Virus record (IMG/VR): IMGVR_UViG_2654587686_000018
Coordinates: 1-31,892 of that record
Strand: one strand, 5' to 3'
Source: a virus
Taxonomy: Duplodnaviria > Heunggongvirae > Uroviricota > Caudoviricetes
Length of the DNA stretch: 31,892 nucleotides
Of the stretch, positions 4,392 to 27,688 are shown in pieces. Positions within the stretch are counted from its first letter, which is position 1, and each line of letters starts with the position of its first letter. The position numbers were made by a program, and so were the translations under genes. The notes under the pieces are model-generated. The model made no database searches and was not told the origin of the DNA. It worked only from the letters and a program-made list of their open reading frames with translations.

Positions 4392-4392
4392 T

Positions 4393-12623: not shown

Positions 12624-12719
12624 AGACTACCGCAAGCCAGGCGGACGCGGTGGAGGGCAGAACACTCCGTGTGTCACTGTGCCGTGGAAACCGGTCAGTC
12701 CGCCTTTTTCGGGGGAATT

Positions 12720-13172
12720 ATGTTTAGCGGAAAACCGCTGGATTATCAGGATGAGCCGCTGACGAATAACGGGTTCTGGCCGGATCTGAATCTGAAGGAC
12801 TTTCAGGCGCAGCGGTCACTGCCAGCTGATATCGACGCGGACACCATCAGTCAGGCGCTGCTGGCCGCAGTCGCGGAGGTGAATGCCGAGCTGGAAAACG
12901 TGGAGGCCAGCTGGAAAGCAAAAGGCCACACGCTGGCAGCAGATGTTCCGGGCGTAAAAATGGGCGGGCTTAACAGTCTGTGTGCCCAGTACATGAAAGC
13001 GGTATTTGCCAGGGCAAAAGCGGATCTGCTGGGGGAGTTCGCCACTGTAGGGCGACGTGAAACCCATCCGGGACAGGAAAGTATGGAAACCCGCGCCGGG
13101 TTACTGGCTGAGGCTTCAGTGGTTATCCGCCGCATGAAGGGGCTTAAACGTGCAACGGTGAAAAAAGTATGA
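12720..13172 (+). CDS. head completion/stabilisation protein (P2 gpL-like)
   Basis: Position after gpM. In-frame ATG at 12720 (MFSGKPL) preferred over the track start at 12669. Confidence 0.6.
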   Translation: MFSGKPLDYQDEPLTNNGFWPDLNLKDFQAQRSLPADIDADTISQALLAAVAEVNAELENVEASWKAKGHTLAADVPGVKMGGLNSLCAQYMKAVFARAKADLLGEFATVGRRETHPGQESMETRAGLLAEASVVIRRMKGLKRATVKKV

Positions 13173-13675
13173 GCCAGACGCAGCTTGAGAGCCTGACTGC
13201 ATTTTTTCAGCAAAACGTGCCGCCGCGCGCCATGCAGTCATTTGACAGTGTGCTGGATGAAATGAAGTTCATCCCCGCCGCGAAGGATTACGGGCTGGGG
13301 CAGTACCGCCAGGCGGTGATTCGCTATGACGCGGTAATCAGCTGGCAGCGTTTCCCGTATCGCCTGTGTCCGCCGCAGTTGCTCATGTCGCTGCTGGCCG
13401 CGTGGCTGGATGAGGCTGACAGGGAATTACTGGATGAAGTCGGCCTGACTGAAGCTGAACCGGACTGGGATGTGTCAGTGGAGGATGAGGAAACCGCCAC
13501 CATTGTGCTGACGGTACCAATGGCGGAAGAACTGGTGATCAGGGAGGACGAAAACGGGGCGATCCCGTGGCGGGGGAAACGCTGGTCGCTGGTTAACCCT
13601 GAAGTCTGGATAGCGATCACCGCCAATATTTATGGCGTGGATGAAACCGGTGCGCCGGTAGGCGGTAACGAATGA
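13169..13675 (+). CDS. putative head-tail joining / tail completion protein
   Basis: 168-aa ORF translationally coupled (ATGA) between the head and tail genes. Family not recognised with confidence. Confidence 0.45.
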   Translation: MSQTQLESLTAFFQQNVPPRAMQSFDSVLDEMKFIPAAKDYGLGQYRQAVIRYDAVISWQRFPYRLCPPQLLMSLLAAWLDEADRELLDEVGLTEAEPDWDVSVEDEETATIVLTVPMAEELVIREDENGAIPWRGKRWSLVNPEVWIAITANIYGVDETGAPVGGNE

Positions 13676-14379
13676 TTGCCGGTGGTGAGCTGAATAAAAA
13701 ACAGCTGGCAGAGTTGCGTAAATCACTGGCCAGCATGGAGCTGCCGCCCAAAAAGCGCCAGCGTCTTATCTGGAGGCTGGCCAAATATGGCGTGATTGCT
13801 GCCGCAAAACGGCACGTTCGCAATCAGGAAGCACCGGATGGCCAGAAGTGGCCGGGGCGTAAAACGAAGCGCAAAGGGAAGATGCTGCGGAACCTGCCAA
13901 AACTGCTGCATATCCGTGAAATGCCAGAAATTCAGGCGGTACGGATTTATTTGCAGGGTGGTGGCTACCGGAACGGGGAAACGCCGTTACCGGCCGGGAC
14001 AGTCGGATATGCGCAACAAAACGGGATGCGCGTCAGTGTCAGCCGTCGCAGTCAGCCACGGAAGGTGGAGGCCGGAAAAATGGCCATGCCAGCCCAGGCC
14101 AAAAAACTGCGGGCGCTGGGGTACCGGGTACGCACCGGTAAACGCTGGAAAAAGCCCACGCTGGGCGAGTTAACCCAAACGATGCCATACAGCCGGGCGG
14201 GGCTACTGATTCGAAAACTCAGCGGTAAAGCGGTGAAAACCAGCTGGACAGTGGATCTTCCTGCCCGTGTATTTCTGGGCATGAGTGACGATGAATTTGA
14301 TAACGCGCTGGCGCGTCAGCTTCAGGCCATCGGCTTTGGCTGGGATGTTAAGGCGCAGGATATTAAGGGGAAAGCATGA
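13672..14379 (+). CDS. putative virion morphogenesis protein
   Basis: 235-aa basic protein, coupled to flanking genes; assignment by position only. Confidence 0.45.
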   Translation: MIAGGELNKKQLAELRKSLASMELPPKKRQRLIWRLAKYGVIAAAKRHVRNQEAPDGQKWPGRKTKRKGKMLRNLPKLLHIREMPEIQAVRIYLQGGGYRNGETPLPAGTVGYAQQNGMRVSVSRRSQPRKVEAGKMAMPAQAKKLRALGYRVRTGKRWKKPTLGELTQTMPYSRAGLLIRKLSGKAVKTSWTVDLPARVFLGMSDDEFDNALARQLQAIGFGWDVKAQDIKGKA

Positions 14380-15503
14380 CCTGGCCAAACGTGACCGTGA
14401 ACCAGGTAAACCAGCTGCTGGGTGAAACCAATGAAGTGGAACGCACGCTGCTGTTTATCGGTACGGGTACCAAAAATGTGGGGAAAACGCTGGCGGTGAA
14501 TGCCCAGAGTGATTTTGATGCACTTCTGGGAGAAGGGGAAAGCCCACTGAAAAGCGATGTTCTGGCGGCACTGGCAAACGCCGGTCAGAACTGGTGGGCA
14601 TTTATTCATGTGCTGCCCGCAGATGCTGAGGACGATGCCTGGGTGAAAGCGGTTCTGGCTGCACAGGTGGTGTGTTCGGTGGAAGGGGTAGTGCTGTCCA
14701 GTGATGTGACGGCCAAAGCCCAGGTGAATCAGGCTGCGACGTTACGATCCACGCTGATTTCCAAATATGGGCGCTGGGTGTGGTTCATCCTGGCCGTGCA
14801 GGGAATGCAGGAAGAAGAAGCCCTGGCGGATTACCTGACCCGTGTGTCTGCCATCCAGGACGGGATTGCAGAGAAGGCGGTGCAGCTGGTCCCGCGTCTG
14901 TGGGGAAATGAGCCGGGTGTGCTGGCTGGCCGTCTGTGCAGTCGTGCCGTGACTATCGCAGACAGTCCCGCCCGTGTGAAAACCGGGGCGCTGCTGAATC
15001 TGGGCAGTGATGAAATGCCGGTTGATGGTACTGGGGCAGTACTGGAGCTGGCCACACTTCAGGCACTGGAAGCGCAGCGTTTTAGTGTACCGATGTGGTA
15101 CCCGGATTATGACGGCTTTTACTGGGCTGACGGGCGAACGCTGGATGTGGAAGGCGGCGATTATCAGTCTATTGAAACCCTGCGTGTTGCCGATAAAGCG
15201 GCGCGTCGTGTACGTCTGCTGGCTATCAGCAAAATTGCGGATCGCTCACTGAACAGCACACCGGGCAGCATCGCTGCACACCAGACGTTGTTTGCACGTC
15301 CACTGCGTGAAATGTCCACAGCGGCCAGTATCAATGGCGTGTCATTTCCGGGGGAAGTGAAGCCGCCGCAGGACGGTGACGTGACCATTGTCTGGAAGAA
15401 CAAAAAGACGGTGGATATTTATCTGGTGGTACGCACCTGGGAAGTTCCGCTGCAAATCACCATCAGTCTGTTACTGGATGCCAGTCTGGAGGGCGCTGCA
15501 TGA
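14376..15503 (+). CDS. putative tail sheath-like structural protein
   Basis: 375 aa, first large gene of the tail block, followed by a tube-sized gene. Not P2 FI-like by sequence. Confidence 0.45.
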   Translation: MTWPNVTVNQVNQLLGETNEVERTLLFIGTGTKNVGKTLAVNAQSDFDALLGEGESPLKSDVLAALANAGQNWWAFIHVLPADAEDDAWVKAVLAAQVVCSVEGVVLSSDVTAKAQVNQAATLRSTLISKYGRWVWFILAVQGMQEEEALADYLTRVSAIQDGIAEKAVQLVPRLWGNEPGVLAGRLCSRAVTIADSPARVKTGALLNLGSDEMPVDGTGAVLELATLQALEAQRFSVPMWYPDYDGFYWADGRTLDVEGGDYQSIETLRVADKAARRVRLLAISKIADRSLNSTPGSIAAHQTLFARPLREMSTAASINGVSFPGEVKPPQDGDVTIVWKNKKTVDIYLVVRTWEVPLQITISLLLDASLEGAA

Positions 15504-15955
15504 GTAAACGTATTTCGGGTATGTCGTTTGATACCTATCTTGATGGCGATCTGATCCATATCGAGAAAATCACACTCGATATCACGGATAACAGCGCCGC
15601 CGCCCAGACCCGTGGTGTGCCGGATGGCCATGTTGATGGTGATGTGGCCGCAGAGGGAGAAATTGAAGTCAGTTCCAAAGTGCTGGGCGTACTGACGGCT
15701 AAAGCCCGCGCCGCAGGTTCGTGGCGTGGTATTCCGCCGCTGGATTTTCTTTTCTATGCCAAAGCGGGCAGCGAAGAAATGAAAGTGGAATCGTTCGGTA
15801 ACAAACTCCAGCTGAGTAATCTGCTGGATATCGATCCAAAGGGCGGCGGTGTGGCGACGCACAAAATCAAATATTTTGTGACCAGTCCCAAGTTCGTGAA
15901 CATCAACGGTGTGCCGTATCTGGAAGCGGAAGCCACGGAAAACCTGATCGGATAA
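15500..15955 (+). CDS. putative tail tube-like protein
   Basis: 151 aa immediately after the sheath-like gene with overlapping start. Confidence 0.45.
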   Translation: MSKRISGMSFDTYLDGDLIHIEKITLDITDNSAAAQTRGVPDGHVDGDVAAEGEIEVSSKVLGVLTAKARAAGSWRGIPPLDFLFYAKAGSEEMKVESFGNKLQLSNLLDIDPKGGGVATHKIKYFVTSPKFVNINGVPYLEAEATENLIG

Positions 15956-15965
15956 GGAAGCCGGA

Positions 15966-16268
15966 ATGCAGGAACATGAAAAGAGCCTTTATTCACTGCT
16001 GATTATGGGGGCGCTCATTGCTGTTGCGAAGGTGCTGGCCAGTGATGATCCCATTACACCGCGCCTGTTTATCAGCCGTGTGATCCTGGGCAGTTTTGTT
16101 TCAGTCATCGCTGGCGCGGTGCTGATTCAAATCCCGGAGGCCAGCCCGCTGGCAATTCAGGGACTGGGGGCAGCGCTGGGTATTGCAGGTTATCAGGCTG
16201 TTGAAATGTGGCTGCGCAGACGTGCAGCGGGAAAGAAGAACGGGAGCGTGACAAATGACCCTGAGTGA
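15966..16268 (+). CDS. holin
   Basis: 100 aa with three hydrophobic segments and a charged C-terminus (RRRAAGKKNG); directly precedes the endolysin. Confidence 0.65.
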   Translation: MQEHEKSLYSLLIMGALIAVAKVLASDDPITPRLFISRVILGSFVSVIAGAVLIQIPEASPLAIQGLGAALGIAGYQAVEMWLRRRAAGKKNGSVTNDPE

Positions 16269-16596
16269 AAAGCAGCAGCTGTTTACCGTCATGGTGGCCA
16301 ACCTGATCCACTGGGCAGAAGAACGCGGCTACCGGCTGACGTTTGGTGAAGCGTACCGCACCCCGGAACAGGCGGCGCTGAACGCGAAGAAGGGCAGCGG
16401 TATTTCGAACAGTCTGCACACCCAGCGTCTGGCCGTGGATTTTAACCTGTTTGTGAATGGCCAGTACCAGACCCGTACAGAGGACTATCTGCCGCTGGGT
16501 GAATACTGGGAATCACTGGGCGGAAGCTGGGGTGGGCGCTTCAAATCCAGACCGGATGGTAATCATTTCAGCCTGGAACATAACGGGGTGCGCTGA
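16255..16596 (+). CDS. endolysin, peptidase M15-type (zinc D-Ala-D-Ala carboxypeptidase fold)
   Basis: 113 aa with SLHTQRLAVDFNLF (H-x6-D) and a C-terminal HFSLEH motif typical of M15 peptidase endolysins. Confidence 0.8.
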   Translation: MTLSEKQQLFTVMVANLIHWAEERGYRLTFGEAYRTPEQAALNAKKGSGISNSLHTQRLAVDFNLFVNGQYQTRTEDYLPLGEYWESLGGSWGGRFKSRPDGNHFSLEHNGVR

Positions 16597-16976
16597 TGAG
16601 TCACGCGCAGTGGCTGGTTGTGGTGGCGCTGGCGTTTGTCTGGGGCTGGCTGACAGCTGACTGGCGGCGCGACAGTCTGGAGCTGGCAATCAATACGGCG
16701 GCGCAGGTGGCGGGTAATGAATCGCGAAAGGCTATGCAGGGCATTGCCAGTGATTCCGCCAGGGAGCTGGAAGATAAACTGGAGGCGCTAAGAAATGCGC
16801 AACCGCGAGAGATCCGCACGGAAGTGCTTAAGCCGGTTTTTACTAACAGGTGCCTGTCTGATGAGTTTGTCAGCATGTACAACAGCGCCGTCGCCGGTAC
16901 CGAACGTGCGTTATCAGGAAAACCTGAAAACACGATGCGCCACGCAGCTGCCGCGCCTGAACGGGGCAACAGGTAA
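16596..16976 (+). CDS. i-spanin (Rz-like)
   Basis: N-terminal hydrophobic anchor (WLVVVALAFVWGWL) followed by a charged, helical periplasmic domain; position after the endolysin. Confidence 0.65.
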   Translation: MSHAQWLVVVALAFVWGWLTADWRRDSLELAINTAAQVAGNESRKAMQGIASDSARELEDKLEALRNAQPREIRTEVLKPVFTNRCLSDEFVSMYNSAVAGTERALSGKPENTMRHAAAAPERGNR

Positions 16977-17094
16977 AGATGCAGCGGAACTGCTGACTGT
17001 TTACCTTGAAATATATGGCCAGTGTGCGGCGCGTCATAATCAATTAGTTGATGAAATTAATTTAAGAGAGCGTGTTATTTATGGAACAAATTAA
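16795..17094 (+). CDS. o-spanin (Rz1-like outer-membrane lipoprotein), overlapped architecture
   Basis: +1-frame ORF starting inside the i-spanin gene. Signal peptide ending in lipobox LSAC. Runs past the i-spanin stop. Confidence 0.55.
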   Translation: MRNRERSARKCLSRFLLTGACLMSLSACTTAPSPVPNVRYQENLKTRCATQLPRLNGATGKDAAELLTVYLEIYGQCAARHNQLVDEINLRERVIYGTN

Positions 17095-17338
17095 ACTGAG
17101 TGTCTGTGGGGTTGATATTGTTTTTGAACCTAATCAGACTGCTTATAATAAACTGATTAATGAAATGGCAATGGATAATAAAGTTGCCCCTGCAAATAAT
17201 TATCTGATGCGTATTGTTACCCCAGAAACGAAAGAAGCACTGATTGACGTATTAAAACGTCCGGGTGCAGCACTGCAACTGGTCAGTAAGGTTAATGATA
17301 TTTACGCGCCGGAACTGGAGATTGAAGTAAAAAACTGA
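17072..17338 (+). CDS. tail assembly chaperone (0-frame product, gpE/G-like)
   Basis: 88-aa ORF immediately upstream of the tape measure gene; ends just after a slippery heptamer. Confidence 0.6.
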   Translation: MLFMEQIKLSVCGVDIVFEPNQTAYNKLINEMAMDNKVAPANNYLMRIVTPETKEALIDVLKRPGAALQLVSKVNDIYAPELEIEVKN

Positions 17339-17529
17339 CAAAGCGAGTCCATGATATTGAACGAAATGGACTCGAACAGTATTTAATTCTCCGTCGTCAT
17401 TATTTACCACATGGTCAGGATTCTGTTGACGATATTGCTGCCGCTATATGGCTGGATAACCGTCACTGGGAATATACGGGAATAGCCGTGGCTAATGGCG
17501 TGGCTAAAGCATTTAAAGGCACTGAATGA
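17072..17529 (+). CDS. tail assembly chaperone -1 frameshift fusion product (gpE+E' / G-T-like)
   Basis: Slippery heptamer A_AAA_AAC at 17329-17335 is in register with the 0-frame codons. The -1 frame is closed by TGA at 17323-17325 just upstream and open from 17335 to a stop at 17527-17529, which overlaps the tape measure ATG. That frame contains no ATG. Confidence 0.55.
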
Positions 17530-19586
17530 AACAGTTAGATTTTACATTAAGCCTTATTGATAAATTGTCCCGCCCGTTAAAACAGGCGCAGGGCAACGTA
17601 ACGGGCTTTGCTGAAAAATCAAAAGAAGCCTTTATGCAGATTGGTGGCGGCGTTCTGGCGCTGGCGGGTACAGGGATGGCCATTAAAGGTGCGCTGATGC
17701 CCGCCATTGAAATGTATGACGCGCTGAATGATGCGGCTGCAAAAGGGATCGATGATTCTGCGCTTAAGGCCGTTCAGCGTGATGCGCTGCGCTTCAGTAC
17801 AACCTACGGTGCCAGTGCGGTGGAGTTCGTCCAGTCCACGGAAAGTATAAATGCGTCCATTGCCGGGCTGACCGGGAATGAACTGCCGAAAGTGACGAAA
17901 GTCGCCAATACCCTGGCGTTTGCGCTCAAATCCACCGCAGCGGAAACCGCTGAGTTTATGGGGCAGATGTTCGGTAACTTCTCCGCCGATGCCAACCGGC
18001 TGGGAAAGGTTGAGTTTGCTGAACAGCTGGCCGGAAAAATGGTGTACATGCGCAAAACCTTTGGCACGGAAATGGCCGCTATCAAGGATTTGATGGAAGG
18101 GGCGCGCGGTGTGGGTACCAACTACGGCGTGGGGCTGGATGAACAGCTGGCCGTGCTGGGACAGCTTCAGCGGACACTGGGAACGGAAGCCAGCAGCGCT
18201 TATGAAGGCTTTATGACCGGAGCCATTGAGGGCGGTAAAAAGCTGGGGCTGTCCTTCACGGATTCCACCGGCAAAATGCTGTCCATGCCTGAAATGCTGA
18301 TCAAGTTACAGGGCAAGTATGGCAAAAGCCTGGAAGGGAATCTGAAAGCCCAGGCTGAACTGGATGCGGCATTTGGTGACAGTTCGGCGGTGGTGAAACA
18401 CCTTTATGGCAATGTGGCGCTGCTTCAGCGCAATATCACAGAACTGGGCAGTACTGATGGTCTGAAGCGTACCCAGGAAATGGCGCAGAAAATGGTGAAG
18501 CCGTGGGATCGGTTTGTCGCAATCCTGAAGGCTATCCAGACCGTCATTGGACTGACGCTGATCCCGGTGCTCTATCCGGTTCTGAACCGACTGGCCGATA
18601 TGGGGCAGACTTTTGCCCGCTGGATGCAGCTATTTCCCAACATTGCGCGTGTTGTTGGTTATGCGGCAATGGCCTTACTCAGCTTTGCGGCTGTGGGCGC
18701 AGTCGCCAACATCGTGATGGGTGTCTCCAGATTCATCATGATGGGGTTGCGTGGGATCTGGGTGGCGCTGACGGCTGTCACGAAGGTTCACACCGCTGCT
18801 GTCTGGCTGGGGAACATTGCCGTGGTTGCCTGGAACGCCACGCTGAAATTTCTGCGCGGTACGTTGCTGGCGGTTCGTATGGCGGCAATGATGGCCGGGA
18901 TAGGTATCAATCTGATGAGCTGGCCGATCCTGCTGGTGATTGGTGCCGTTGCCTTACTTGCTGCCGGTTGCTGGCTGCTGATTAAACACTGGGACACGGT
19001 AAAGAACGCGGTCATGGATACCGCTGCATTTCAGACATGCGCCAGGGGGGTGGCATGGCTTGCCGGGGTGTTTGCTTCAGCCTGGCAGTTTATCAGCGAA
19101 GGCTGGAACAGTTTTATTTCCATGCTGACCGGGTTTTCTCCTTCCCAGGCATTAAGCGGGCTGGCCACGGGCATTGTGTCATTGTTTGATAATGTCTGGT
19201 TGTCCGTTAAAAACGGCTTTCTGAAATCATGGAACTGGATTGTAAGTAAATTAAATAACATTCCGGGTGTTGATATTGAACTGGCGGGTGCGGCTTCACC
19301 GGATATCGCTAAAAATGAAGCGGCAGTATTTCCAGTGCCGGAATTGAAGCAATCAGCGAAAGCTGACGGTGCTCTTGCTGCGGTGACACAAAATAATTAC
19401 GCCCCAGACCGGCTTTTAACCGGAGGCGAATTAAAAGGCATTGAAAAGGGCGGGATCACCAAAACGATTAACAGTAATGCCAAATCCGTAACCGACAATA
19501 GCCGGAAAATTGACACGGTAAACATTTATCCGAAAGAAATGATTACACCCGGTCAGTTAATGGAATTTCAGGAGCTGGGCGCATGA
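17526..19586 (+). CDS. tail tape measure protein
   Basis: 686 aa, alanine/glycine-rich with a central hydrophobic block; follows the chaperone frameshift pair. Confidence 0.85.
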   Translation: MKQLDFTLSLIDKLSRPLKQAQGNVTGFAEKSKEAFMQIGGGVLALAGTGMAIKGALMPAIEMYDALNDAAAKGIDDSALKAVQRDALRFSTTYGASAVEFVQSTESINASIAGLTGNELPKVTKVANTLAFALKSTAAETAEFMGQMFGNFSADANRLGKVEFAEQLAGKMVYMRKTFGTEMAAIKDLMEGARGVGTNYGVGLDEQLAVLGQLQRTLGTEASSAYEGFMTGAIEGGKKLGLSFTDSTGKMLSMPEMLIKLQGKYGKSLEGNLKAQAELDAAFGDSSAVVKHLYGNVALLQRNITELGSTDGLKRTQEMAQKMVKPWDRFVAILKAIQTVIGLTLIPVLYPVLNRLADMGQTFARWMQLFPNIARVVGYAAMALLSFAAVGAVANIVMGVSRFIMMGLRGIWVALTAVTKVHTAAVWLGNIAVVAWNATLKFLRGTLLAVRMAAMMAGIGINLMSWPILLVIGAVALLAAGCWLLIKHWDTVKNAVMDTAAFQTCARGVAWLAGVFASAWQFISEGWNSFISMLTGFSPSQALSGLATGIVSLFDNVWLSVKNGFLKSWNWIVSKLNNIPGVDIELAGAASPDIAKNEAAVFPVPELKQSAKADGALAAVTQNNYAPDRLLTGGELKGIEKGGITKTINSNAKSVTDNSRKIDTVNIYPKEMITPGQLMEFQELGA

Positions 19587-19912
19587 GTGAGAGTCTTTAT
19601 ATTGATTTGCTTATTCAGGGCGGTGATTTTGTTCTGAATACCGGATATGAACCTGAACTGTGTAATAACCGTAAAAGTATCGGACAGGACATTATTCATT
19701 CCATTATTGAAAGCGGGCTGGCAACGGAACTGATTGCCGAACGCAGCCCAACAATGCGGGCGGATATTTTTACCCGTATGGAATTACTGATTGAAGATGA
19801 TGAACGGATTATTCCGGGAACAGTGGAAATCAGTGAGGAAAGCCAGAAACGATTATGGATAACGGCCAGCACCTATGACTTTGGCGGCATATCTGCGCAG
19901 GTGGATTTATGA
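19583..19912 (+). CDS. putative baseplate protein (gpW-like position)
   Basis: 109 aa, coupled between the tape measure and the baseplate J-like gene. Confidence 0.45.
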   Translation: MSESLYIDLLIQGGDFVLNTGYEPELCNNRKSIGQDIIHSIIESGLATELIAERSPTMRADIFTRMELLIEDDERIIPGTVEISEESQKRLWITASTYDFGGISAQVDL

Positions 19913-21093: not shown

Positions 21094-21673
21094 GTTCATG
21101 AAAAAGCTGGCCGGGATGGTGCTTCCTTCCTGGATGAATCAGGGGGAGCCGAACAAGCTGCTGAAAACAGCCCGGCGATTCTGGGCGGAGGTTTACGGCT
21201 GGATAACCTGGCCACTGAACCAGTTTGATCCGCTCACCTGCACACCGGCATTACTGAACCTGCTGGCGTATGACCGGGACATAACCCGCTTTGATGGTGA
21301 GCCACTGAGTCTGTTTCGTAAGCGTGTGGCGTATGCCTTTGTCAATGCCCGTGATGCCGGTTCCGTTGAGGGATTTATCAACATCTTTGAACGGCTGGGT
21401 ATTGGGTATGTGGAGCTGCGGGAGCGCCAGCCAGGTATTGACTGGGATGTGATCTTGGTACGTGTGACGGACGGCCAGATAGCAGACAACACGCAGCTGC
21501 TTATCCAGATAATCCGGCAGTACGGGCGAACATGCCGCCGCTATCAGTTTGAGGTGATCACATCGGAAAAAATGGCTATCAGAGCCGGATGGGATCAGGG
21601 GGAATATGTGGTTTATCCGGCTTCGTTAGCAGGGACGGAAACCCACAGCGCGACATTCAGCGCAGGTTTGTAA
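21080..21673 (+). CDS. tail protein I-like (baseplate)
   Basis: 197 aa; LLNLLAYDRD and RKRVAYAFVNARDAGSVEGFINIFERLGIGYVEL resemble P2 gpI. Confidence 0.6.
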   Translation: MRMNEFMKKLAGMVLPSWMNQGEPNKLLKTARRFWAEVYGWITWPLNQFDPLTCTPALLNLLAYDRDITRFDGEPLSLFRKRVAYAFVNARDAGSVEGFINIFERLGIGYVELRERQPGIDWDVILVRVTDGQIADNTQLLIQIIRQYGRTCRRYQFEVITSEKMAIRAGWDQGEYVVYPASLAGTETHSATFSAGL

Positions 21674-21683
21674 GGAATTTTTT

Positions 21684-23693
21684 ATGTCACAGACAGTTAT
21701 CACGCTGGCGTTTGAACACTGGAAAGCGCAGCAGGGTGCGACCGGCGAGCCGGTGTTACTGGATGAATTTGTGTTTGCGAATGTGCCAGGGCTGAACCCG
21801 GATATTCCCGTTGATCGCAGTGAAGCACTGCCGCCTTTGGAACAGATTGTGCACCGGCAACCTGTTACCCGCACTGGAGTGGTGAATGAAAATGGCGTGG
21901 TGTATTCCGCTGTTCTGGGCGCTGACGTGGGCGATTTCAGTTTCAACTGGATCGGACTGCTGAATAAGGCCAGCGGAACTCTGGCCATGATTGTTCATGC
22001 GCCTGTACAGCAAAAGCTGAAAACAGCGGAAGGGCAGCAGGGGAACGTGCTTACCCGTTCGTTTCTGATGGAGTACAACGGCGCACAGACTGAAACCGGG
22101 ATTACTACACCGGCTGAAACCTGGCAGATTGATTTCACGGCGCGTATGGCCGGAATGGATGAGCGTCAGCGCCTGGAAAATGCGGATATTTACGGCGCTG
22201 CGGCATTCTTTGGCGATGGCTGGATGGTCGGTAAAACGGGTAATCAGTTCTTTGTCACCAACGGCACTGGCTACGTGGCAGGGCTGCGTACATCACTGGC
22301 CGCAAATCAGAATATCACCGTGACGACAAAACCGGTCAAAGTCTGGCTGGATGTGTGCTGGACGGGATCGCTTACCAGCGTGTGGAATACGCAGTGTAAA
22401 ATTACCGTTACGGAAAACCTGGCTGATTACGTGCAGAACGGTGTGCAGCATTATGTGTTTGCTGTGGCCAGCATTGATGTGAATGGCAATATCACGGATT
22501 TACGGCCAAAAGGGACGCTAAATGAGCAGGTGGCCAGCGATGCGCTGAAAAAGCATGAGCAGTCCCGAAATCATCCTGATGCCACGACCAGCGAGAAGGG
22601 ATTCACTCAGTTAAGTAACGCGACAGACAGCGCCAGTGAAGGGCAAGCTGCAACACCGAAGGCGGTTAAAATAGCGATGGATAATGCAAACGCGCGTCTT
22701 GCAAAAGAGCGTAATGGTGCAGACATCCCGAATCCACCGTTATTTGTTCAGAATATTGGTTTGCAGGATACGGTTAACAAGGCGGATGGCGCAGTACAGA
22801 GAACAGATGTTCAGGCATCGCGTGATGATGTAACACCTGGCCGTCTGCTTACTAATGGCAGCGCAATTGCAACCCGTTCAGTTGCAGCATCGAATGCAGA
22901 ATGGGCTTTTACAAATGACTCAAACAGCTTGCCAGCTAACGCAGTGAGCTTTGTTTATTCGTCTGCCAGAAATTCACCCGGATATGAGGCGTCAGTTCTG
23001 GATTATTCCGGGCTTTCTGGTGAGTACCGAACACAAATTGCAGCAAGTTATACCGCTAACAAAATCAGTTTCAGGACCAAAAACGGCGACAATAATAACT
23101 GGAATAACTGGTTTGAGTTTTACCATACTGGAAATAAACCTACCCCGCAGGATATAGGTGCTCTGCCGGCATGGGTACTGGGTGGTGTCAGAGATGGAGG
23201 CAGTTTCGATGGTTTTACGACGCCGGGTTTTTATTGGGTAAGCATTGATAATGCAGAAACCGTCGCAGGTATGCCGTCACGTACCAATGGAACCCATTGC
23301 TATGGATATGGTTCTTTACTTGTTATTCCGGCCGGAAATGCAATCACGCAAGTGTACATCAGTGATGCCGGAGATTTTGCTACAAGGCAATGGTGGGGTA
23401 ACTGGCATCCCTGGAAATCATCCTATAGTCCGGTATCTCAACCCAATCCCGGTGATATTGGCGCTTATACGAAAGCAGAGTGTGACGCCCGTTATGTTGC
23501 TGACGTTCAGTTAGGAACGGGAACGCGGGTTACAACATGGAATTCCGCAGGAGACTGGCCTAACTCTCCAGGCTATGTCATTACGTCAGTAAATAAAGAC
23601 TGGATGGATCAAAACCTTGACGGGGTGACTTATGCTCCACTCCAGAAAAGAATAGGTAATCAGTGGTATACCGTTATTGGGGGGACGCCATAA
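21684..23693 (+). CDS. tail fibre protein
   Basis: 669 aa; conserved fibre motif SEKGFTQLSNATDSASEGQAATPKAVKIAMDNA; distal part compositionally AT-richer. Confidence 0.8.
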   Translation: MSQTVITLAFEHWKAQQGATGEPVLLDEFVFANVPGLNPDIPVDRSEALPPLEQIVHRQPVTRTGVVNENGVVYSAVLGADVGDFSFNWIGLLNKASGTLAMIVHAPVQQKLKTAEGQQGNVLTRSFLMEYNGAQTETGITTPAETWQIDFTARMAGMDERQRLENADIYGAAAFFGDGWMVGKTGNQFFVTNGTGYVAGLRTSLAANQNITVTTKPVKVWLDVCWTGSLTSVWNTQCKITVTENLADYVQNGVQHYVFAVASIDVNGNITDLRPKGTLNEQVASDALKKHEQSRNHPDATTSEKGFTQLSNATDSASEGQAATPKAVKIAMDNANARLAKERNGADIPNPPLFVQNIGLQDTVNKADGAVQRTDVQASRDDVTPGRLLTNGSAIATRSVAASNAEWAFTNDSNSLPANAVSFVYSSARNSPGYEASVLDYSGLSGEYRTQIAASYTANKISFRTKNGDNNNWNNWFEFYHTGNKPTPQDIGALPAWVLGGVRDGGSFDGFTTPGFYWVSIDNAETVAGMPSRTNGTHCYGYGSLLVIPAGNAITQVYISDAGDFATRQWWGNWHPWKSSYSPVSQPNPGDIGAYTKAECDARYVADVQLGTGTRVTTWNSAGDWPNSPGYVITSVNKDWMDQNLDGVTYAPLQKRIGNQWYTVIGGTP

Positions 23694-24250
23694 TGCAAAA
23701 TATTAGAAATTTCAGACTGGTGGATATGCCGAAAAACCGTGAGAAAACACCGGGTGAAATAAATATAGGTAGCCTGTTTTTAGAATCGGAAGACGGGCTG
23801 GACTGGTACGAGTGCCAAGCGTTTTATTCAGATGATACGGCCAAAATCATGTATGACGGATCTGGCATTATCTGGGGAGTTGTTAATAAACCTGTACCAC
23901 AGCGGAATAACACTTATGCGGTGTCGATGTTATGGCCGGTGAATATGTCTGTTGCCGAGCTGGATGTTGCGTTATGCCCTGATGATTGTTTAGGCGATGG
24001 TACATGGAGATATATTGATGGAAAAATCGAGAAAATCCCTACTGATTACGTTGCTATTGCTGAAAGTAAAAAATCCCGACTAATGAATGAAGCAAATGCT
24101 GTGATAGCGCCGCTTGAACGGGCTGTAAAACTGGGGATTGCCACGAGTAATGAGATTGCAGAGTTGGAGGCATGGGAGCGATATAGCGTCATGGTTAACC
24201 GGGTCGATACTACAAAACCTGAATGGCCAGAGGTGCCTGATGTGGCGTGA
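23693..24250 (+). CDS. tail fibre assembly protein
   Basis: ATG overlaps the fibre stop (TAATG); about 186 aa, the usual size and position for a fibre assembly chaperone. The track ORF starts 30 nt upstream, inside the fibre gene. Confidence 0.65.
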   Translation: MQNIRNFRLVDMPKNREKTPGEINIGSLFLESEDGLDWYECQAFYSDDTAKIMYDGSGIIWGVVNKPVPQRNNTYAVSMLWPVNMSVAELDVALCPDDCLGDGTWRYIDGKIEKIPTDYVAIAESKKSRLMNEANAVIAPLERAVKLGIATSNEIAELEAWERYSVMVNRVDTTKPEWPEVPDVA

Positions 24251-24965
24251 AGCGCGTCTGGCTTTCACAGACTCACTGGCCGCGCTGAATTGTTCCGTTG
24301 TTCCGGCGCATCCGTGGATAAACGGTCTGGGGCAACAGACGGATAACGGGGCATACCTCAGCCCGGTGAATGCCGTCCGCTATTTTGCTGAAAGGCTGGC
24401 CGGAACGGGCGGGAATGCCGATGTGATGATCATGATGGTGACAGGCCAGACGCATGAGAATTTTATGACCCGTCTCAACGGTCTGGTCGATGTTTTTCCG
24501 GCACCGGCATTCACGCAGGTCAAGCGCCTGGCACAATCCGCAGCGACGCTGGCCATCGAAAAAATGCAGATCCCCGCTAAAACCGGGGCGGGGTTGCCGG
24601 TGGCCATTCCGCTGTCTGTGCCAACCAGCAGGGTGGCATTATCTGCGGCGGCTGTCAGCCAGGCACAAAAAGCGGCCAGTGCGGGATTCAGCCTGGACGG
24701 ACTAAAGCAGCAACTGGGCGAGTTCGCGCAGCTGCGTGACAGCCTGATCAGTGATGTGGCCAGCGGGCTGAATGATTTGCAGGGGAAAAGTGCCAGAGCA
24801 TGGGTGTTTACCAGCACCGGCGATACAGCCACCACGCTGCTGGAACTGGTAAAGGATATCCCGCAACCGTCAGCCGTCTATACAGCGGCGGTGATGCTGG
24901 TCGGTGACAATCTGGATGGAATAAAGGGAATGATTCATGACTTCGATCCCAACGCTGGCGCTTAA
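24240..24965 (+). CDS. hypothetical tail/baseplate-associated protein
   Basis: In-frame ATG at 24240 overlapping the upstream stop; 241 aa, alanine-rich; function not recognised. Confidence 0.45.
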   Translation: MWREARLAFTDSLAALNCSVVPAHPWINGLGQQTDNGAYLSPVNAVRYFAERLAGTGGNADVMIMMVTGQTHENFMTRLNGLVDVFPAPAFTQVKRLAQSAATLAIEKMQIPAKTGAGLPVAIPLSVPTSRVALSAAAVSQAQKAASAGFSLDGLKQQLGEFAQLRDSLISDVASGLNDLQGKSARAWVFTSTGDTATTLLELVKDIPQPSAVYTAAVMLVGDNLDGIKGMIHDFDPNAGA

Positions 24966-25482
24966 TGGTGAGGCTATCCAGCTGAAAAATATGCGCGTGA
25001 CCGTCTCGCAGCAGTTTCAGGATAAAGACCAGTCCGGCCAGACAAGTGCCACAACCAAATCAGAACAGGGGGCAAAAGGGAAAGAGCTGCGTATCAGTGG
25101 CGAAATTCCGTTTAAAAGCCCGGAGATCCTGAAGCGTATTTTCGAACTGGCCAGCGCCACGGATGCCGGAGGCAACCGCCAGAAATACCGCGTGGCGCAT
25201 GAAGTGGCCAGAGCCGTGAATTTTCGTGAGGCGACATTCAGCGGAATGCTTGATGCCCCGCAGCAGGACGGGAAAATGGCCTGGCTGGTCACGTTTACGC
25301 TGGCAGAACATATCAGCGTGCAGGAAAAGCGGGAAGCCAGGGCAACAGGCAAAACGTCTGCCAAAAAACAGACGGCCGGTAATGCGGGACAATCCGGTGG
25401 CCAGAGTGCCGGGGAAGATGAAGAAAAACTGACGTGGTTTGAAAAACGGGTACTGAAACCCGTCAATGATGCTTTGGGTTAA
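24937..25482 (+). CDS. hypothetical tail-associated protein
   Basis: 181 aa, start overlaps the previous gene, SD (aaaggga) upstream. Confidence 0.45.
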   Translation: MTSIPTLALNGEAIQLKNMRVTVSQQFQDKDQSGQTSATTKSEQGAKGKELRISGEIPFKSPEILKRIFELASATDAGGNRQKYRVAHEVARAVNFREATFSGMLDAPQQDGKMAWLVTFTLAEHISVQEKREARATGKTSAKKQTAGNAGQSGGQSAGEDEEKLTWFEKRVLKPVNDALG

Positions 25483-27185
25483 TGATGAAACCAGTTAAAC
25501 GCCTGTACCTTTCAACGGATGAAGTTCACCTGGCGGATGCCAGCCTGGTGCTGGAGCTGAACAGCTGCGGCCGGGGATTTATCACTGTACAGACAGCCAC
25601 GGATTACACCGGGAAACTGGTGCGGCTGGATGTGGGGTATTCCGATCTGCTTTTGCGCTGGTTTACTGGTTATGTGGAACGCTCACAACCCGCCGAAAAC
25701 GGTTTTCAGCGTCTGTTTGTGCGCGAGCTGGTCGGCGTGTTTGAAAGGATGTGGCCATGTTCATTTCAGCACCCCACTTTGCGCAAGGTAGCCAGCTGGC
25801 TGGAGGAAAACAGCGGAATTGCTGTCAGTGTGCCGGATGCCCCTTACAGCGATAAACCGATCCCCCATTTCACCCACAACGGCACAGGCTATCAGTTGCT
25901 GAATAATCTGGGCAGGGCGTTCAGTATCCCGGATTACATCTGGTACCAGCTGCCGGATGGTTCCCTGCATGTGGGCGGCGCGGAAAAAGCGATGTTTGCC
26001 GGTCGCCCGGTCGATATCCCGGCAGAGTTTAGCCTGGGGGCGGCTGGCGGTAATTCCATGACGCTGCCGGTGATCCAGAGTCTGCGGCCGGGTGTGGAGC
26101 TGAACGGGGAGCGTGTGACCAAAGTTCATCTGACCAATGACACAATGGCTGTTACCTGGACACCCAGAAACCGTGCAACAGGTCAGCCATTACAGAAAAC
26201 ACCTGCACAGCGCCAGATTGAAAGCAATTACCCGGAACTGGCTTCCGGGCTGCATCTGCCAAAACTGGCCAGAGTGGTGGCACCCAGCGAGGCTGTGAAA
26301 AGTGGTAATTTTGCCGATCCGTTCCGGCCGCGCTATGCCGTTGATGTGCAGCTGCTTGATGCAGACGGCAACCCGGACAACCAGACACCGGTTTATTCTG
26401 CGGTGCCGCTGCCGGTACCTATGGCCGGGAATGACTCTGGCATGTTCCAGTTCCCGCCAGAAGGGACGCTGGTTGAAGTGGCGTTTACCGGAGGTCGCCC
26501 GGATAAACCGTTTATCAGGCAGACGTTGCCAGATGGTACCAGTCTGCCGGATGTTAAACCCGGCGAGCAGCTGCAACAGCAACGGGCGGAAGTGTCGCAA
26601 CGTGTTACCCAGGCTGGCGATTGGGTACGGCAGACCGATCAGACCATCAGCGAAACATCGATGGCGCGGACGGTTAAAGCCGATACGGAACAGCGTGATT
26701 TGGTCAGCCGTGAAACCACGGTTAAAGCCACCGACAAAACCACGGTTCTGGGTACCGCCACCCTGTTGGCCGGTGCCATCCAGCAGGTCAGCGCCGGGGA
26801 TTTTAGCCAGGCCGTGAAGGGCAACAGACTGGCCAGCATTGAAGGCAATGACGAAACCGATATTTCCGGGAAACAGTCCACTAAGGTGGCCGGAGCCGTG
26901 GATGTTGATGTGGGGGGAACCCTGACTGAAAAGATTGCTGCATTACGTAAATCGGTGGCGGCGGGCGGTCAGCAGATTATGGGACCAACCGTCCATATTG
27001 GCAGTGAGAGCGTCAACACGCTGACTATGATGCTGGACACTATTGATTTACTGGCCGAGCTGGCGCAGCAGTGTGCGAGCCATTCACACCCCAGTGTTGG
27101 TACGCCAACCAATGCCGGGGCATTCACACAGACGGCGGAGAAGGCCGGACAGACCCGAAGTAAGTACCAGAAAATAATCGCCTGA
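25482..27185 (+). CDS. baseplate central spike protein (gpV / gp5 / VgrG-like OB fold) with C-terminal extension
   Basis: FPPEGTLVEVAFTGGRPDKPFI matches the spike OB-fold motif (FxPxxGxxVxVxFxxGxxDxPxI). C-terminal HSHP is reminiscent of the HxH tip of P2 gpV. Confidence 0.5.
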   Translation: MMKPVKRLYLSTDEVHLADASLVLELNSCGRGFITVQTATDYTGKLVRLDVGYSDLLLRWFTGYVERSQPAENGFQRLFVRELVGVFERMWPCSFQHPTLRKVASWLEENSGIAVSVPDAPYSDKPIPHFTHNGTGYQLLNNLGRAFSIPDYIWYQLPDGSLHVGGAEKAMFAGRPVDIPAEFSLGAAGGNSMTLPVIQSLRPGVELNGERVTKVHLTNDTMAVTWTPRNRATGQPLQKTPAQRQIESNYPELASGLHLPKLARVVAPSEAVKSGNFADPFRPRYAVDVQLLDADGNPDNQTPVYSAVPLPVPMAGNDSGMFQFPPEGTLVEVAFTGGRPDKPFIRQTLPDGTSLPDVKPGEQLQQQRAEVSQRVTQAGDWVRQTDQTISETSMARTVKADTEQRDLVSRETTVKATDKTTVLGTATLLAGAIQQVSAGDFSQAVKGNRLASIEGNDETDISGKQSTKVAGAVDVDVGGTLTEKIAALRKSVAAGGQQIMGPTVHIGSESVNTLTMMLDTIDLLAELAQQCASHSHPSVGTPTNAGAFTQTAEKAGQTRSKYQKIIA

Positions 27186-27196
27186 CCATCCCATCA

Positions 27197-27227
27197 GCCC
27201 GCGCATAATGCGGGCTTTGTCGTTTGC
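27197..27227 (+). terminator. intrinsic terminator after the tail operon
   Basis: GCCCGC / GCGGGC stem at 27197-27215 followed by a T-rich tract (TTTGTCGTTTG). Confidence 0.55.
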
Positions 27228-27290
27228 TCAGTTCCTTGTTAGGATTGTTGCGATAGGATTATTGCTGACTCAAAGGATAAGAAAAGGGAT

Positions 27291-27623: not shown

Positions 27624-27665
27624 CCATAGCTTCATATCAGTTGATATAAATTGAGTATTCCGCTA

Positions 27666-27688
27666 ACCCGCATAATGCGGGTTTTTTT
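27666..27688 (+). terminator. intrinsic terminator after the moron
   Basis: ACCCGC-ATAAT-GCGGGT hairpin followed by TTTTTTT. Confidence 0.7.

What the first reader, a model, noticed from the sequence alone, without database searches (positions are those of the whole stretch)
13169..27185. Mosaic tail module attached to a P2-type head module
The head genes follow the P2 order (Q, P leftward; O, N, M, L rightward). The tail genes do not follow the P2 order X-lysis-R-S-V-W-J-I-H-G-FI-FII-E-T-U-D. Sheath- and tube-like genes come directly after the head completion genes. The lysis cassette is inserted between the tube and chaperone genes. The baseplate block is W-like, J-like, I-like, fibre, fibre assembly, and the central spike gene comes last, after two unknown genes. 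This indicates a module exchange at the head-tail junction.
Basis: partly seen in the sequence, partly recalled or inferred. Interest (0 to 1): 0.4.

Follow-up and report, generated by a model that had tools for sequence, protein, structure and literature searches.

The report
Ordinary HP1-type tail genes, P2-family prophage
The unusual tail gene order is real, but it is the standard layout of the long-known HP1 branch of the P2 phage family, so this E. coli prophage is an ordinary member and not a new hybrid.

Summary
It runs: gpR-like, gpS-like, sheath (DUF2586), tube (HP1_Orf24), holin, M15 endolysin, Rz/Rz1, tail chaperone with a -1 frameshift, tape measure, DUF2590, J-like, I-like, fibre, fibre assembly, orf33-like, ORF34-like, and a fused hub-spike.

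This order is not peculiar to this genome. It matches Haemophilus phage HP1 orf20-orf35 gene for gene. The same order occurs in K139, phiO18P, phi3, SI7, ACA1, ESSI-2 and ESSI2_ev129, which represent seven named Peduoviridae genera plus the unclassified ACA1. It also held in all 90 related loci I scored.

Identity to relatives does not change across the L/R junction, so there was no recent exchange there. The head proteins are also closer to HP1 than to P2. [quoted passage not shown]

The real local mosaicism is elsewhere: the fibre tip plus assembly gene, the lysis genes, and the immunity region.

- The ORF34-like protein has a tube fold of the ripcord/tube-initiator (P2 gpU) kind.
- The last gene carries a gp5/VgrG-type spike.

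Sheath and tube identity rests on curated annotation and published HHpred results. My own profile tests could not link them to P2 FI or FII.

The parts
12669..13172 (+). gpL head completion / head-tail adaptor. This is the last gene of the P2-type head block, given here as context. The real start is probably ATG 12720.
   Evidence: Pfam Phage_GPL E 1.3e-39. 39% identical to HP1 orf20 and 32% to P2 L. hhalign against the P2 L family gives 99% probability.
13169..13675 (+). gpR-like tail terminator / tail completion protein
   Evidence: Pfam P2_Phage_GpR E 4.5e-25. PHROG 65 'tail terminator'. hhalign against the P2 R family gives 81% probability. HP1 orf21 is 26% identical.
13672..14379 (+). gpS-like tail completion / Neck1 protein
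   Evidence: Pfam Phage_tail_S, exactly at the cut-off. PHROG 26. hhalign against the P2 S family gives 97% probability. HP1 orf22 is 29% identical.
14376..15503 (+). HP1-type tail sheath (DUF2586 family)
   Evidence: Pfam DUF2586 E 2e-137. PHROG 907 'tail sheath' E 5e-166. 51% identical to HP1 orf23. The ACA1 GenBank note records HHpred matches of its orthologue to HP1 orf23 and the P2 sheath. The best PDB profile hit is the phage 812 tail sheath, with collinear N- and C-terminal segments, but only E 0.099. My hhalign against P2 FI was negative.
15500..15955 (+). HP1-type tail tube protein
   Evidence: Pfam Phage_HP1_Orf24 E 6e-62. 60% identical to HP1 orf24. Orthologues are annotated as tail tube in K139, phiO18P, phi3 and ACA1, and the ACA1 note records an HHpred match to P2 FII. 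It always lies directly after the sheath gene (90 of 90 loci). No direct sequence link to solved tube proteins was found.
15966..16268 (+). Holin, P2 gpY type
   Evidence: Pfam Phage_holin_3_2 E 6e-39. 54% identical to P2 Y and no match to the HP1 holin.
16255..16596 (+). Endolysin, M15 metallopeptidase
   Evidence: Pfam Peptidase_M15_4 E 6e-11. Unrelated to HP1 lys and to P2 K. 94% identical to the ESSI-2 copy, against 55-83% for the neighbouring genes.
16596..16976 (+). Rz-like inner-membrane spanin
   Evidence: N-terminal hydrophobic segment WLVVVALAFVWGWL. Orthologues are annotated as Rz-like spanin in ev129 and ESSI-2.
16795..17094 (+). Rz1-like outer-membrane lipoprotein spanin, overlapping Rz in another frame
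   Evidence: Lipobox-like ...CLMSLSAC. Weak NCBIfam P2_Rz1 (LysC) hit, E 0.001 and below the cut-off.
17072..17338 (+). Tail assembly chaperone, the gpE analogue
   Evidence: Pfam Phage_TAC_10 E 4e-34. 42% identical to HP1 orf26.
17329..17529 (+). Slippery heptamer A_AAA_AAC (17329-17335) and the -1 frame extension 17335-17529, which would give the longer chaperone form (gpE+E' analogue)
   Evidence: Read from the sequence. The -1 frame is open for 64 codons, and its stop overlaps the tape measure ATG. The same stretch is annotated as a separate small ORF (DUF6890) in E. coli SC455. ACA1 is annotated with the analogous frameshift. The frameshift itself is inferred, not shown.
17526..19586 (+). 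Tape measure protein
   Evidence: Pfam PhageMin_Tail E 1e-22. 32% identical to HP1 orf27. hhalign against the P2 T family gives 99% probability.
19583..19912 (+). DUF2590 protein, the presumed sheath initiator (gpW / gp25 analogue)
   Evidence: Pfam DUF2590 E 5e-45. 61% identical to HP1 orf28. The ACA1 note records HHpred matches to HP1 orf28 and P2 gpW. My own tests against P2 W and the PDB were negative.
19909..21093 (+). Baseplate wedge protein, gpJ-like
   Evidence: Pfam Baseplate_J E 2e-28. PHROG 6 'baseplate wedge subunit'. 52% identical to HP1 orf29. The P2 J family is the top hhalign partner, at 32% probability, E 5e-4.
21080..21673 (+). Baseplate wedge protein, gpI-like
   Evidence: Pfam Tail_P2_I E 2e-5. 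56% identical to HP1 orf30. The P2 I family is the top hhalign partner, at 30% probability.
21684..23693 (+). Tail fibre, with a conserved N-terminal baseplate-attachment part and an exchangeable C-terminal tip
   Evidence: Pfam Phage_tail_fib (residues 3-158) and Phage_fiber_2. Only the N-terminal 43-50% matches ev129, ESSI-2 and HP1. The DNA of the 3' end (from about 23.5 kb), together with the assembly gene, is about 68-70% identical to cassettes in ST64B, Fels-2, SJ46 and 118970_sal3.
23663..24250 (+). Tail fibre assembly protein, gpG type. The start may be ATG 23693.
   Evidence: Pfam Caudo_TAP E 3e-29. 39% identical to P2 G and no HP1 match.
24240..24965 (+). HP1 orf33-like protein, specific to the HP1-type module, role unknown. 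Presumed to be a baseplate or tail-tip structural protein.
   Evidence: 25% identical to HP1 orf33, E 7e-17. PHROG 1677, unknown function. No Pfam, NCBIfam or PDB match. All named homologues are 'hypothetical protein'. The ACA1 orthologue is noted as detected by mass spectrometry. The AlphaFold model is unusable, mean pLDDT 43.5.
24937..25482 (+). HP1 ORF34-like baseplate protein with a tube fold: ripcord / tube initiator, the P2 gpU analogue
25482..27185 (+). Fused hub-like N-terminal domain plus central spike. The spike part has an OB domain, a gp5-type beta-helix and a C-terminal tip with an invariant HxH.
   Evidence: Residues 413-508 match the T4 gp5 beta-helix, E 3e-10, and residues 290-355 match the VgrG OB region. 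Weak Pfam Phage_base_V and Gp5_C hits. 41% identical to HP1 orf35 over the full length. PHROG 4011 covers only residues 243-566. In ACA1 the two halves are separate genes. H534 and H536 are invariant in 7 sequences. The hub identity of residues 1-240 is inferred.
27196..27216 (+). Intrinsic terminator closing the structural gene run
   Evidence: Stem of 8 pairs (6 G-C) followed by a T-rich tail. It is the strongest + strand terminator-like site in 12600-28000. The only other comparable + strand site, 27665-27683, lies beyond the structural genes.

Best explanation
Window 13169-27185 is the standard HP1-type contractile-tail and lysis module of a temperate P2-family (Peduoviridae, HP1 subgroup) prophage of E. 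coli. Its closest relatives are the ESSI2-like phages (Quadragintavirus, Seongnamvirus).

How it works is inferred from the family assignments.
- The hub-spike trimer (25482), the tape measure (17526) and the tube-fold initiator/ripcord (24937) form the core of the baseplate.
- The J-like and I-like wedge proteins and the DUF2590 sheath initiator build around that core, and fibres attach through their conserved N-terminus.
- The tube (15500) and then the sheath (14376) polymerise to the length set by the tape measure. The chaperone and its -1 frameshift form assist.
- gpR-like and gpS-like proteins cap the tail, and it joins the gpL-completed P2-type head.
- On infection the fibres trigger sheath contraction, which drives the spike through the outer membrane.
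- The holin, M15 endolysin and spanin genes sit in a variable slot between the tube and chaperone genes and are expressed with the late genes.

The head-plus-tail combination was inherited as a unit from the common ancestor of the HP1 subgroup. It was not assembled in this genome.
For: Shown:
- Family assignments for every gene.
- Gene-for-gene collinearity with HP1 orf20-35, at 25-61% identity.
- The same order in K139, phiO18P, phi3, ACA1, SI7, ESSI-2, ev129 and E. coli SC455.
- All families present were collinear and on one strand in 90 of 90 loci. 88 of those loci also have gpL and 84 have a P2-family capsid gene.
- Sheaths only 24-31% identical to this one still sit behind P2-type head genes.
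- Identity is level across the junction: SC455 98-100%, ev129 86-97%, and ESSI-2 58-88% in the head against 69-82% in the first tail genes.
- The head is closer to HP1 than to P2.
- ORF34-like fold and spike domains.

Published:
Against: - I could not link the sheath, tube, DUF2590 or hub domain to P2 FI, FII, W or D, or to solved structures. Those roles rest on PHROG and GenBank annotation, published HHpred results, position and size.
- The function of the orf33-like gene remains unknown.
- Whether this prophage is inducible and makes tails was not tested. The window does not include its left end or integrase.
Confidence: 0.9

Rival explanations
1. A recent recombination in this prophage's own lineage joined a P2-type head module to a foreign tail module at the head-tail junction.
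For: The tail proteins have no BLAST similarity to P2 tail proteins, while the head proteins do. The gene order differs from P2.
Against: There is no identity step at the junction against any relative, from 98-100% (SC455) down to HP1. The head is itself closer to HP1 than to P2. The same pairing is found in seven named Peduoviridae genera plus the unclassified ACA1, in 90 of 90 loci, and with sheaths as low as 24-31% identical.
Confidence: 0.02
2. There was never an exchange. HP1-type and P2-type tails descend vertically from one ancestral Peduoviridae tail. They diverged faster than the head and were rearranged by moving the W-J-I-H-G block between T and U, moving the lysis genes, and fusing D with V.
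For: R, S and T are confidently related to their P2 counterparts, and J and I weakly. The set of building blocks is the same. The order U-like then D-like is kept at the end of the module. One block transposition explains most of the order difference (inference). [quoted passage not shown]
Against: The sheath and tube are usually among the better conserved tail proteins, yet here they are undetectable between the two types while head proteins keep 27-43% identity. The published sheath timetree places the split among the earliest myovirus radiations, older than the portal split (PMC10612066).
Confidence: 0.25
3. The region is a defective remnant or a domesticated tailocin-like element and not a working phage tail module.
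For: The relative in E. coli SC455 carries a frameshifted capsid gene. The window lacks the integrase end.
Against: All 24 structural and lysis reading frames in the window are intact and full length compared with the deposited phage genomes ev129 and ESSI-2. The complete head, packaging, replication (gpA) and Ogr genes are present.
Confidence: 0.08

Closest known systems
Escherichia phage ESSI2_ev129 / ev015 / ev040 (Quadragintavirus) and the prophage of E. coli SC455
   Same: Identical gene order from portal to spike. DNA identity is 85-86% over 74% of window 7000-31892 for the ev phages and 95.5% over 90% of the tail region for SC455. Protein identity is 86-100% across both head and tail.
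   Different: The fibre tip and fibre assembly gene differ (only 36-46% identity, with partial coverage). The CI repressor is only about 40% identical. There is an extra small secreted-protein gene at 27291. The integration site is next to ybjL here, but between mntS and mntR in SC455.
Haemophilus phage HP1 (Hpunavirus), orf20-orf35: the type example of this tail module (Esposito et al. 1996)
   Same: Gene-for-gene collinear. Sheath 51%, tube 60%, DUF2590 61%, J 52%, I 56%, ORF34 39% and orf35 41% identical. The lysis genes sit between the tube and chaperone genes, and the hub-spike gene comes last.
   Different: The holin and endolysin are unrelated. HP1 has a SAR muramidase and pinholin (PMC7312051 abstract), whereas this window has a P2 Y-type holin and an M15 peptidase. 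The fibre tip and assembly protein differ. The host is different.
Phage P2 tail genes (Peduovirus): X, R, S / V, W, J, I, H, G / FI, FII, E, E', T, U, D
   Same: The same functional parts list for a minimal contractile tail. R, S and T are detectably homologous, and J and I weakly. Both have a -1 frameshifted chaperone before the tape measure. A U-like gene is followed by a D-like gene. The holin (54%) and fibre assembly protein (39%) are directly similar.
   Different: P2 has three separate operons in a different order. Here there is one uninterrupted run with no strong internal terminator. Sheath, tube, W, U, D and V have no detectable sequence similarity. Hub and spike are fused. No gpX (LysM) homologue was found. 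An extra orf33-like gene is present.
Pyocin R2 / phage Pa193 / cyanophage Pam3 baseplate 'ripcord' and tube-initiator proteins
   Different: Sequence identity is only 11-15%. The protein has a disordered, charged C-terminal region (residues 129-161) and a terminal helix. Its position in the particle has not been shown.

Membership tests
HP1 subgroup of Peduoviridae (HP1-type tail module) | P2-type head and packaging block: portal and large terminase on one strand, then scaffold, P2-family capsid, small terminase and gpL on the other | tested here: met
   Pfam hits for all six genes, in the right order and orientation. 33-51% identical to HP1 orf15-20.
HP1 subgroup of Peduoviridae (HP1-type tail module) | DUF2586 sheath followed directly by an HP1_Orf24 tube, placed right after gpL, gpR and gpS | tested here: met
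   51% and 60% identical to HP1 orf23 and orf24. The adjacency held in 90 of 90 loci.
HP1 subgroup of Peduoviridae (HP1-type tail module) | Order chaperone, tape measure, DUF2590, J, I, fibre, assembly, orf33, ORF34, orf35 (hub-spike last) | tested here: met
   The same order is seen in K139, phiO18P, SI7, ESSI-2 and ev129.
HP1 subgroup of Peduoviridae (HP1-type tail module) | Tail proteins much closer to HP1 than to P2 (the criterion of PMC10612066, Table 2) | tested here: met
   25-61% identity to HP1. There is no BLAST hit to the P2 counterparts for sheath, tube, W, J, U, D or V.
HP1 subgroup of Peduoviridae (HP1-type tail module) | Virion with an approximately 60 nm head and a contractile tail | not testable with these tools
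   Needs induction and electron microscopy.
Genus Quadragintavirus (ESSI2_ev129-like) | Nucleotide similarity over the whole genome above the ICTV genus threshold. I recall this as about 70%; I did not check it. | tested here: inconclusive
   85.8% identity over 74% of window 7000-31892, which is roughly 63%. The window lacks the prophage's left end, and no whole-genome comparison was run.
P2-type tail module (Peduovirus and the rest of the P2 subgroup) | Gene order X-lysis-R-S, V-W-J-I-H-G, FI-FII-E-T-U-D in three operons | tested here: not met
   Order compared with the annotated P2, phiCTX and RSA1 records.
P2-type tail module (Peduovirus and the rest of the P2 subgroup) | FI-type sheath and FII-type tube recognisable by sequence | tested here: not met
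   No Pfam sheath or tube family hit, even at E up to 10, in 48 family members. hhalign against the FI and FII families gave no match.
Contractile-tail sheath superfamily | Sheath fold with conserved N- and C-terminal domains | tested here: inconclusive
   The best PDB hit of the family profile is the phage 812 sheath, with collinear N- and C-terminal segments, but only E 0.099. Published HHpred results align ACA1 sheath residues 86-310 with P2 101-334 and T4 354-597 (PMC10612066). No structure was predicted here.
gp5 / VgrG / gpV central spike | OB-fold domain followed by a triple-stranded beta-helix, with a terminal tip | tested here: met
   T4 gp5 beta-helix match at E 3e-10. The VgrG OB region matches residues 290-355. 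HxH is invariant near the C-terminus. Its role as a metal site is from my recollection of the P2 gpV structure work and was not tested.

The most novel reading that the evidence does not exclude
The HP1-type tail module may be strictly tied to P2-type heads. The P2-type tail module, by contrast, is reported to have moved into other phage families. In every context I could read, the HP1-type sheath sat behind P2-type head genes, even at 24-31% sheath identity. PMC10612066 states that this question is open. A related point is that the module's orf33-like virion protein (24240-24965) has no recognisable fold or family. It could be a baseplate component without a counterpart in solved contractile tails.
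Probability: 0.4. Interest if true: 0.3.

Novelty: already known. Interest (0 to 1): 0.1.

Why it matters
It matters little as a discovery. The combination of a P2-type head with an HP1-type tail has been known since the HP1 genome (1996). [quoted passage not shown]

The check still has three uses:
- It stops this prophage from being recorded as a new hybrid.
- It assigns a fold-level role (tube-fold ripcord/initiator, P2 gpU analogue) to the ORF34-like protein, which Pfam names only 'baseplate complex protein' and which the ACA1 record's visible note compares to P2 gpU only by size and position.
- It locates the real exchange-prone spots of the module: the slot between the tube and chaperone genes, and the fibre tip with its assembly gene.

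Tried and rejected
- AlphaFold on the orf33-like protein (24240-24965) with 40 homologues gave mean pLDDT 43.5. The model is unusable, so no fold search was run.
- Linking the DUF2586 sheath to known sheaths all failed or was only suggestive. I tried hhalign of a 48-sequence profile against P2 FI, against an 82-sequence FI family, Pfam at E up to 10 on all 48 members, and a PDB profile search (best hit a sheath at E 0.099).
- Tube family profile against the PDB and against the ORF34 family: nothing.
- DUF2590 profile against the PDB and P2 W: nothing.
- hhalign of the hub-spike N-terminal domain ranked P2 D first, but at 2.5% probability, so I did not use it.
- IMG/VR scans with divergent sheaths P0337 and P0336, and with an alignment of divergent sheaths, found nothing or could not run. 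Their contexts came from the look-up of encoding contigs instead.
- PADLOC on the flanking low-GC genes gave no credible defence hit.

Full report
**1. What is in the window**

The window carries most of a P2-family prophage, followed by E. coli chromosome. From left to right it holds:
- a CI-type repressor (507-1064, minus strand)
- early genes, a gpA replication protein (4357-6408) and an Ogr/Delta zinc-finger gene (6716-7039, minus strand)
- the head block, then the region under review

From about 29040 onward the sequence is the ybjL-ybjM-grxA region, 97-98% identical to almost every complete E. coli genome. The integrase end of the prophage lies beyond the left edge of the window. No tRNA gene is present.

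**2.

Pfam places portal and large terminase on the minus strand. GPO scaffold, P2-family capsid, small terminase and GPL head completion are on the plus strand, exactly as in the annotated P2 record.

From 13169 to 27185 there is one uninterrupted plus-strand run in this order:

| Start | Gene |
|---|---|
| 13169 | gpR-like |
| 13672 | gpS-like |
| 14376 | DUF2586 (PHROG 'tail sheath') |
| 15500 | Phage_HP1_Orf24 (tube) |
| 15966 | holin |
| 16255 | M15 endolysin |
| 16596 / 16795 | Rz / Rz1 |
| 17072 | Phage_TAC_10 chaperone |
| 17526 | tape measure |
| 19583 | DUF2590 |
| 19909 | Baseplate_J |
| 21080 | Tail_P2_I |
| 21684 | fibre |
| 23663 | fibre assembly |
| 24240 | unknown |
| 24937 | HP1_ORF34 |
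| 25482 | 567-aa spike protein |

The only strong plus-strand terminator-like hairpins in 12600-28000 are at 27196-27216 and 27665-27683, both after the last structural gene.

- The two genes between L and the sheath are the tail-completion genes R and S, not head genes.
- The unknown gene starts at ATG 24240.
- The apparent gap 17338-17526 is coding in the -1 frame. The slippery heptamer A_AAA_AAC lies at 17329-17335, and the -1 frame is open for 64 codons and stops on the tape measure ATG. This is the usual gpE/E' arrangement.
- The last protein is more than a spike.

**3. The order is the norm, not an oddity**

The nearest phage records are Escherichia phages ESSI2_ev129, ev015 and ev040 (Quadragintavirus; about 85% identity over 74% of the query) and Cronobacter phage ESSI-2 (Seongnamvirus). 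Their RefSeq annotation shows the same order gene for gene.

Haemophilus phage HP1 orf20-orf35 is collinear with window 12669-27185. Protein identities to HP1 are:

| Protein | Identity to HP1 |
|---|---|
| sheath | 51% |
| tube | 60% |
| chaperone | 42% |
| tape measure | 32% |
| DUF2590 | 61% |
| J | 52% |
| I | 56% |
| orf33 | 25% |
| ORF34 | 39% |
| orf35 | 41% |

The same order appears in K139 (Longwoodvirus), phiO18P (Bielevirus), phi3 (Phitrevirus), SI7 (Irrigatiovirus) and ACA1, and in an E. coli SC455 prophage.

I called ORFs in 90 loci that carry this sheath type: the window, 8 named phages, SC455, and 80 IMG/VR contigs. I located each protein family with iterated HMM searches. Every family present was collinear and on one strand in 90 of 90 loci. 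88 loci had gpL and 84 had a P2-family capsid gene where the flank allowed.

A tblastn search with the tube protein found 76 phage records. Every full genome record among the 60 rows shown is about 29-39 kb, and all come from Gammaproteobacteria hosts. About 1% of complete E. coli genomes (51 of 5426) carry a similar tail region.

**4. No exchange at the junction in this lineage**

Per-gene tblastn identities are level on both sides of the L/R boundary:

| Comparator | Head (Q to L) | First tail genes (R to tube) |
|---|---|---|
| E. coli SC455 | 98-100% | 98-99% |
| ESSI2_ev129 | 89-97% | 86-94% |
| ESSI-2 | 58-88% | 69-82% |

For HP1, head proteins are 33-51% identical and tail proteins 25-61%. 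The head proteins are also closer to HP1 than to P2: Q 46 against 33%, P 51 against 43%, O 35 against 29%, N 33 against 27%, M 39 against 30%, L 39 against 32%. Head and tail have therefore travelled together since the ancestor of the HP1 group.

The real breaks in similarity are elsewhere:
- the CI repressor
- the C-terminal half of the fibre plus the assembly gene, whose DNA resembles cassettes in ST64B, Fels-2, SJ46 and P2-like phages at about 68-70% identity
- the lysis genes: the holin is 54% identical to P2 Y, and the endolysin is an M15 peptidase unlike either HP1 lys or P2 K
- a small extra gene at 27291

The slot between the tube and chaperone genes varies from 623 to 2661 bp among the 86 loci that hold both genes. 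It holds different cargo in different phages: a zinc-finger gene in K139 and phi3, a methyltransferase in phiO18P, and no lysis genes in ACA1.

**5. Relation to the P2 tail**

BLAST finds no P2 counterpart for sheath, tube, chaperone, DUF2590, J, orf33, ORF34 or orf35.

I built family alignments from the HP1-type loci. For the P2 side I used 83 loci: P2, phiCTX, RSA1, and 80 genomes found with P2 FI. I then ran hhalign all against all:

| HP1-type protein | Best P2 partner | Probability |
|---|---|---|
| L | L | 99% |
| 13169 | R | 81% |
| 13672 | S | 97% |
| tape measure | T | 99% |
| 19909 | J | 32% (E 5e-4), correct partner ranked first |
| 21080 | I | 30% (E 6e-4), correct partner ranked first |
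| sheath, tube, chaperone, DUF2590, orf33, ORF34, orf35 | none | no signal |

Detectable P2 similarity therefore continues through gpS and fades from the sheath onward.

Read as parts lists, the two modules differ mainly in three ways. The W-J-I-H-G block sits between T and U, the lysis genes have moved, and D and V are fused. This comparison is my inference.

The literature already covers the pattern:
- Lavigne et al. [quoted passage not shown] **6. Are 14376 and 15500 sheath and tube?**

Evidence for the assignment:
- PHROG 907 'tail sheath', E 5e-166.
- RefSeq and GenBank annotation of the orthologues.
- The ACA1 record's notes of HHpred matches to the P2 sheath and tube, and the published alignment ranges.
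- The invariant sheath-tube adjacency.

My independent tests did not confirm it at significance. The DUF2586 family is small: 217 clusters at 50% identity in 1.84 billion representatives. A 48-member profile gave no hhalign match to P2 FI. No sheath Pfam family was hit even at E up to 10. The best PDB match was the phage 812 tail sheath at E 0.099, with two collinear segments at the N- and C-termini. That the top hit among 177,635 sequences is a sheath, matched at its conserved ends, is suggestive but no more. The tube profile hit nothing. I spent both structure predictions on the two unknown genes, so the fold test for sheath and tube remains to be done.

**7. The three last genes**

- **25482-27185.** Residues 413-508 match the T4 gp5 beta-helix (E 3e-10), and residues 290-355 match the VgrG OB region. 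H534 and H536 are invariant in seven sequences. As I recall, this resembles the metal-binding tip of the P2 gpV spike. PHROG 4011 covers only residues 243-566, and in ACA1 the N-terminal domain and the spike are separate genes. The protein is therefore a fusion of a presumed hub domain with the spike.
- **24240-24965 (orf33-like).** This gene stays unexplained. There is no Pfam, NCBIfam or PDB match. Every source name shown among its 120 listed homologues (of 270 found) is 'hypothetical protein' or 'Phage protein'. The model is poor, with mean pLDDT 43.5. Its ACA1 orthologue is noted as detected by mass spectrometry.

**8. Does the HP1-type tail occur with other heads?**

PMC10612066 says nothing is known about this. 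In the few divergent contexts I could read, sheaths 24-31% identical to this one (P0336, P0301, P0371) sit behind portal, terminase, GPO, P2 capsid, small terminase and GPL genes. Two further short contigs show only gpR-like or HP1_Orf24 neighbours. This is a small sample and not a survey.

**9. Verdict**

The interpretation as a notable mosaic is not. This is the ordinary architecture of the HP1 subgroup of Peduoviridae in an ESSI2-like E. coli prophage, and it is already described. Interest is low.

Noticed in passing
window 17329-17529: A canonical -1 slippery heptamer, A_AAA_AAC, lies at the end of the chaperone gene. It is followed by a 64-codon open -1 frame that stops on the tape measure start codon. 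RefSeq annotates the same stretch in E. coli SC455 as a separate 'DUF6890' gene and not as a frameshift product.
   Followed up: partly
window 27291-27623 (flanked by hairpins at 27196-27216 and 27665-27683): A 110-aa gene with an N-terminal signal-peptide-like segment sits between two terminator-like hairpins that share the core CCGCATAATGCGGG. It lies at the prophage's right end. It has no counterpart in SC455, ev129, ESSI-2, HP1 or P2, and no Pfam or PADLOC hit. It looks like a moron (a cargo gene added to the prophage).
   Followed up: partly
window 1-495 (minus strand, runs off the left edge): A low-GC (34%) open reading frame lies downstream of the CI repressor gene and has an N-terminal hydrophobic segment. 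HP1 has orf1-4 in this position, and K139 has the exclusion gene glo. There was no PADLOC hit.
   Followed up: partly
window 27775-29040, genes 28192-28554 and 28583-28981 (minus strand): A low-GC (38%) stretch with two small genes of unknown function lies between the prophage end and ybjL. It is present in only a few E. coli genomes (for example EcPF15), whereas nearly all genomes match from about 29040 on. The only family hits were sub-threshold Cas1 matches, which I regard as chance.
   Followed up: partly
window 22674-24250: The 3' end of the fibre gene (from about 23.5 kb) and the fibre assembly gene are unlike those of the closest relatives. At about 68-70% DNA identity they resemble cassettes in unrelated Salmonella and E. 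coli phages (ST64B, Fels-2, SJ46, 118970_sal3). This is the usual host-range cassette exchange.
   Followed up: yes
window 16255-16596: The M15 endolysin is 94% identical to the ESSI-2 copy, while neighbouring genes are only 55-83% identical to ESSI-2. It is unrelated to the HP1 and P2 endolysins. This suggests separate exchange within the lysis slot.
   Followed up: no
window 6716-7039 (minus strand): The Ogr/Delta zinc-finger late activator lies directly downstream of the portal gene on the same strand. At 107 aa it is longer than P2 Ogr (72 aa). It is 99-100% conserved in ev129 and SC455.
   Followed up: no
L177 18990-20716: In a prophage with a divergent 440-aa DUF2586 sheath, the HP1_ORF34 gene follows the fibre gene directly and is followed by an integrase. 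No fibre-assembly, orf33-like or hub-spike gene was called. It is either a truncated prophage or a variant arrangement.
   Followed up: no
L005 12727-13750: The major capsid gene of the 95-100% identical prophage in E. coli SC455 is annotated as frameshifted, so that copy may be defective. The window's copy is intact.
   Followed up: no
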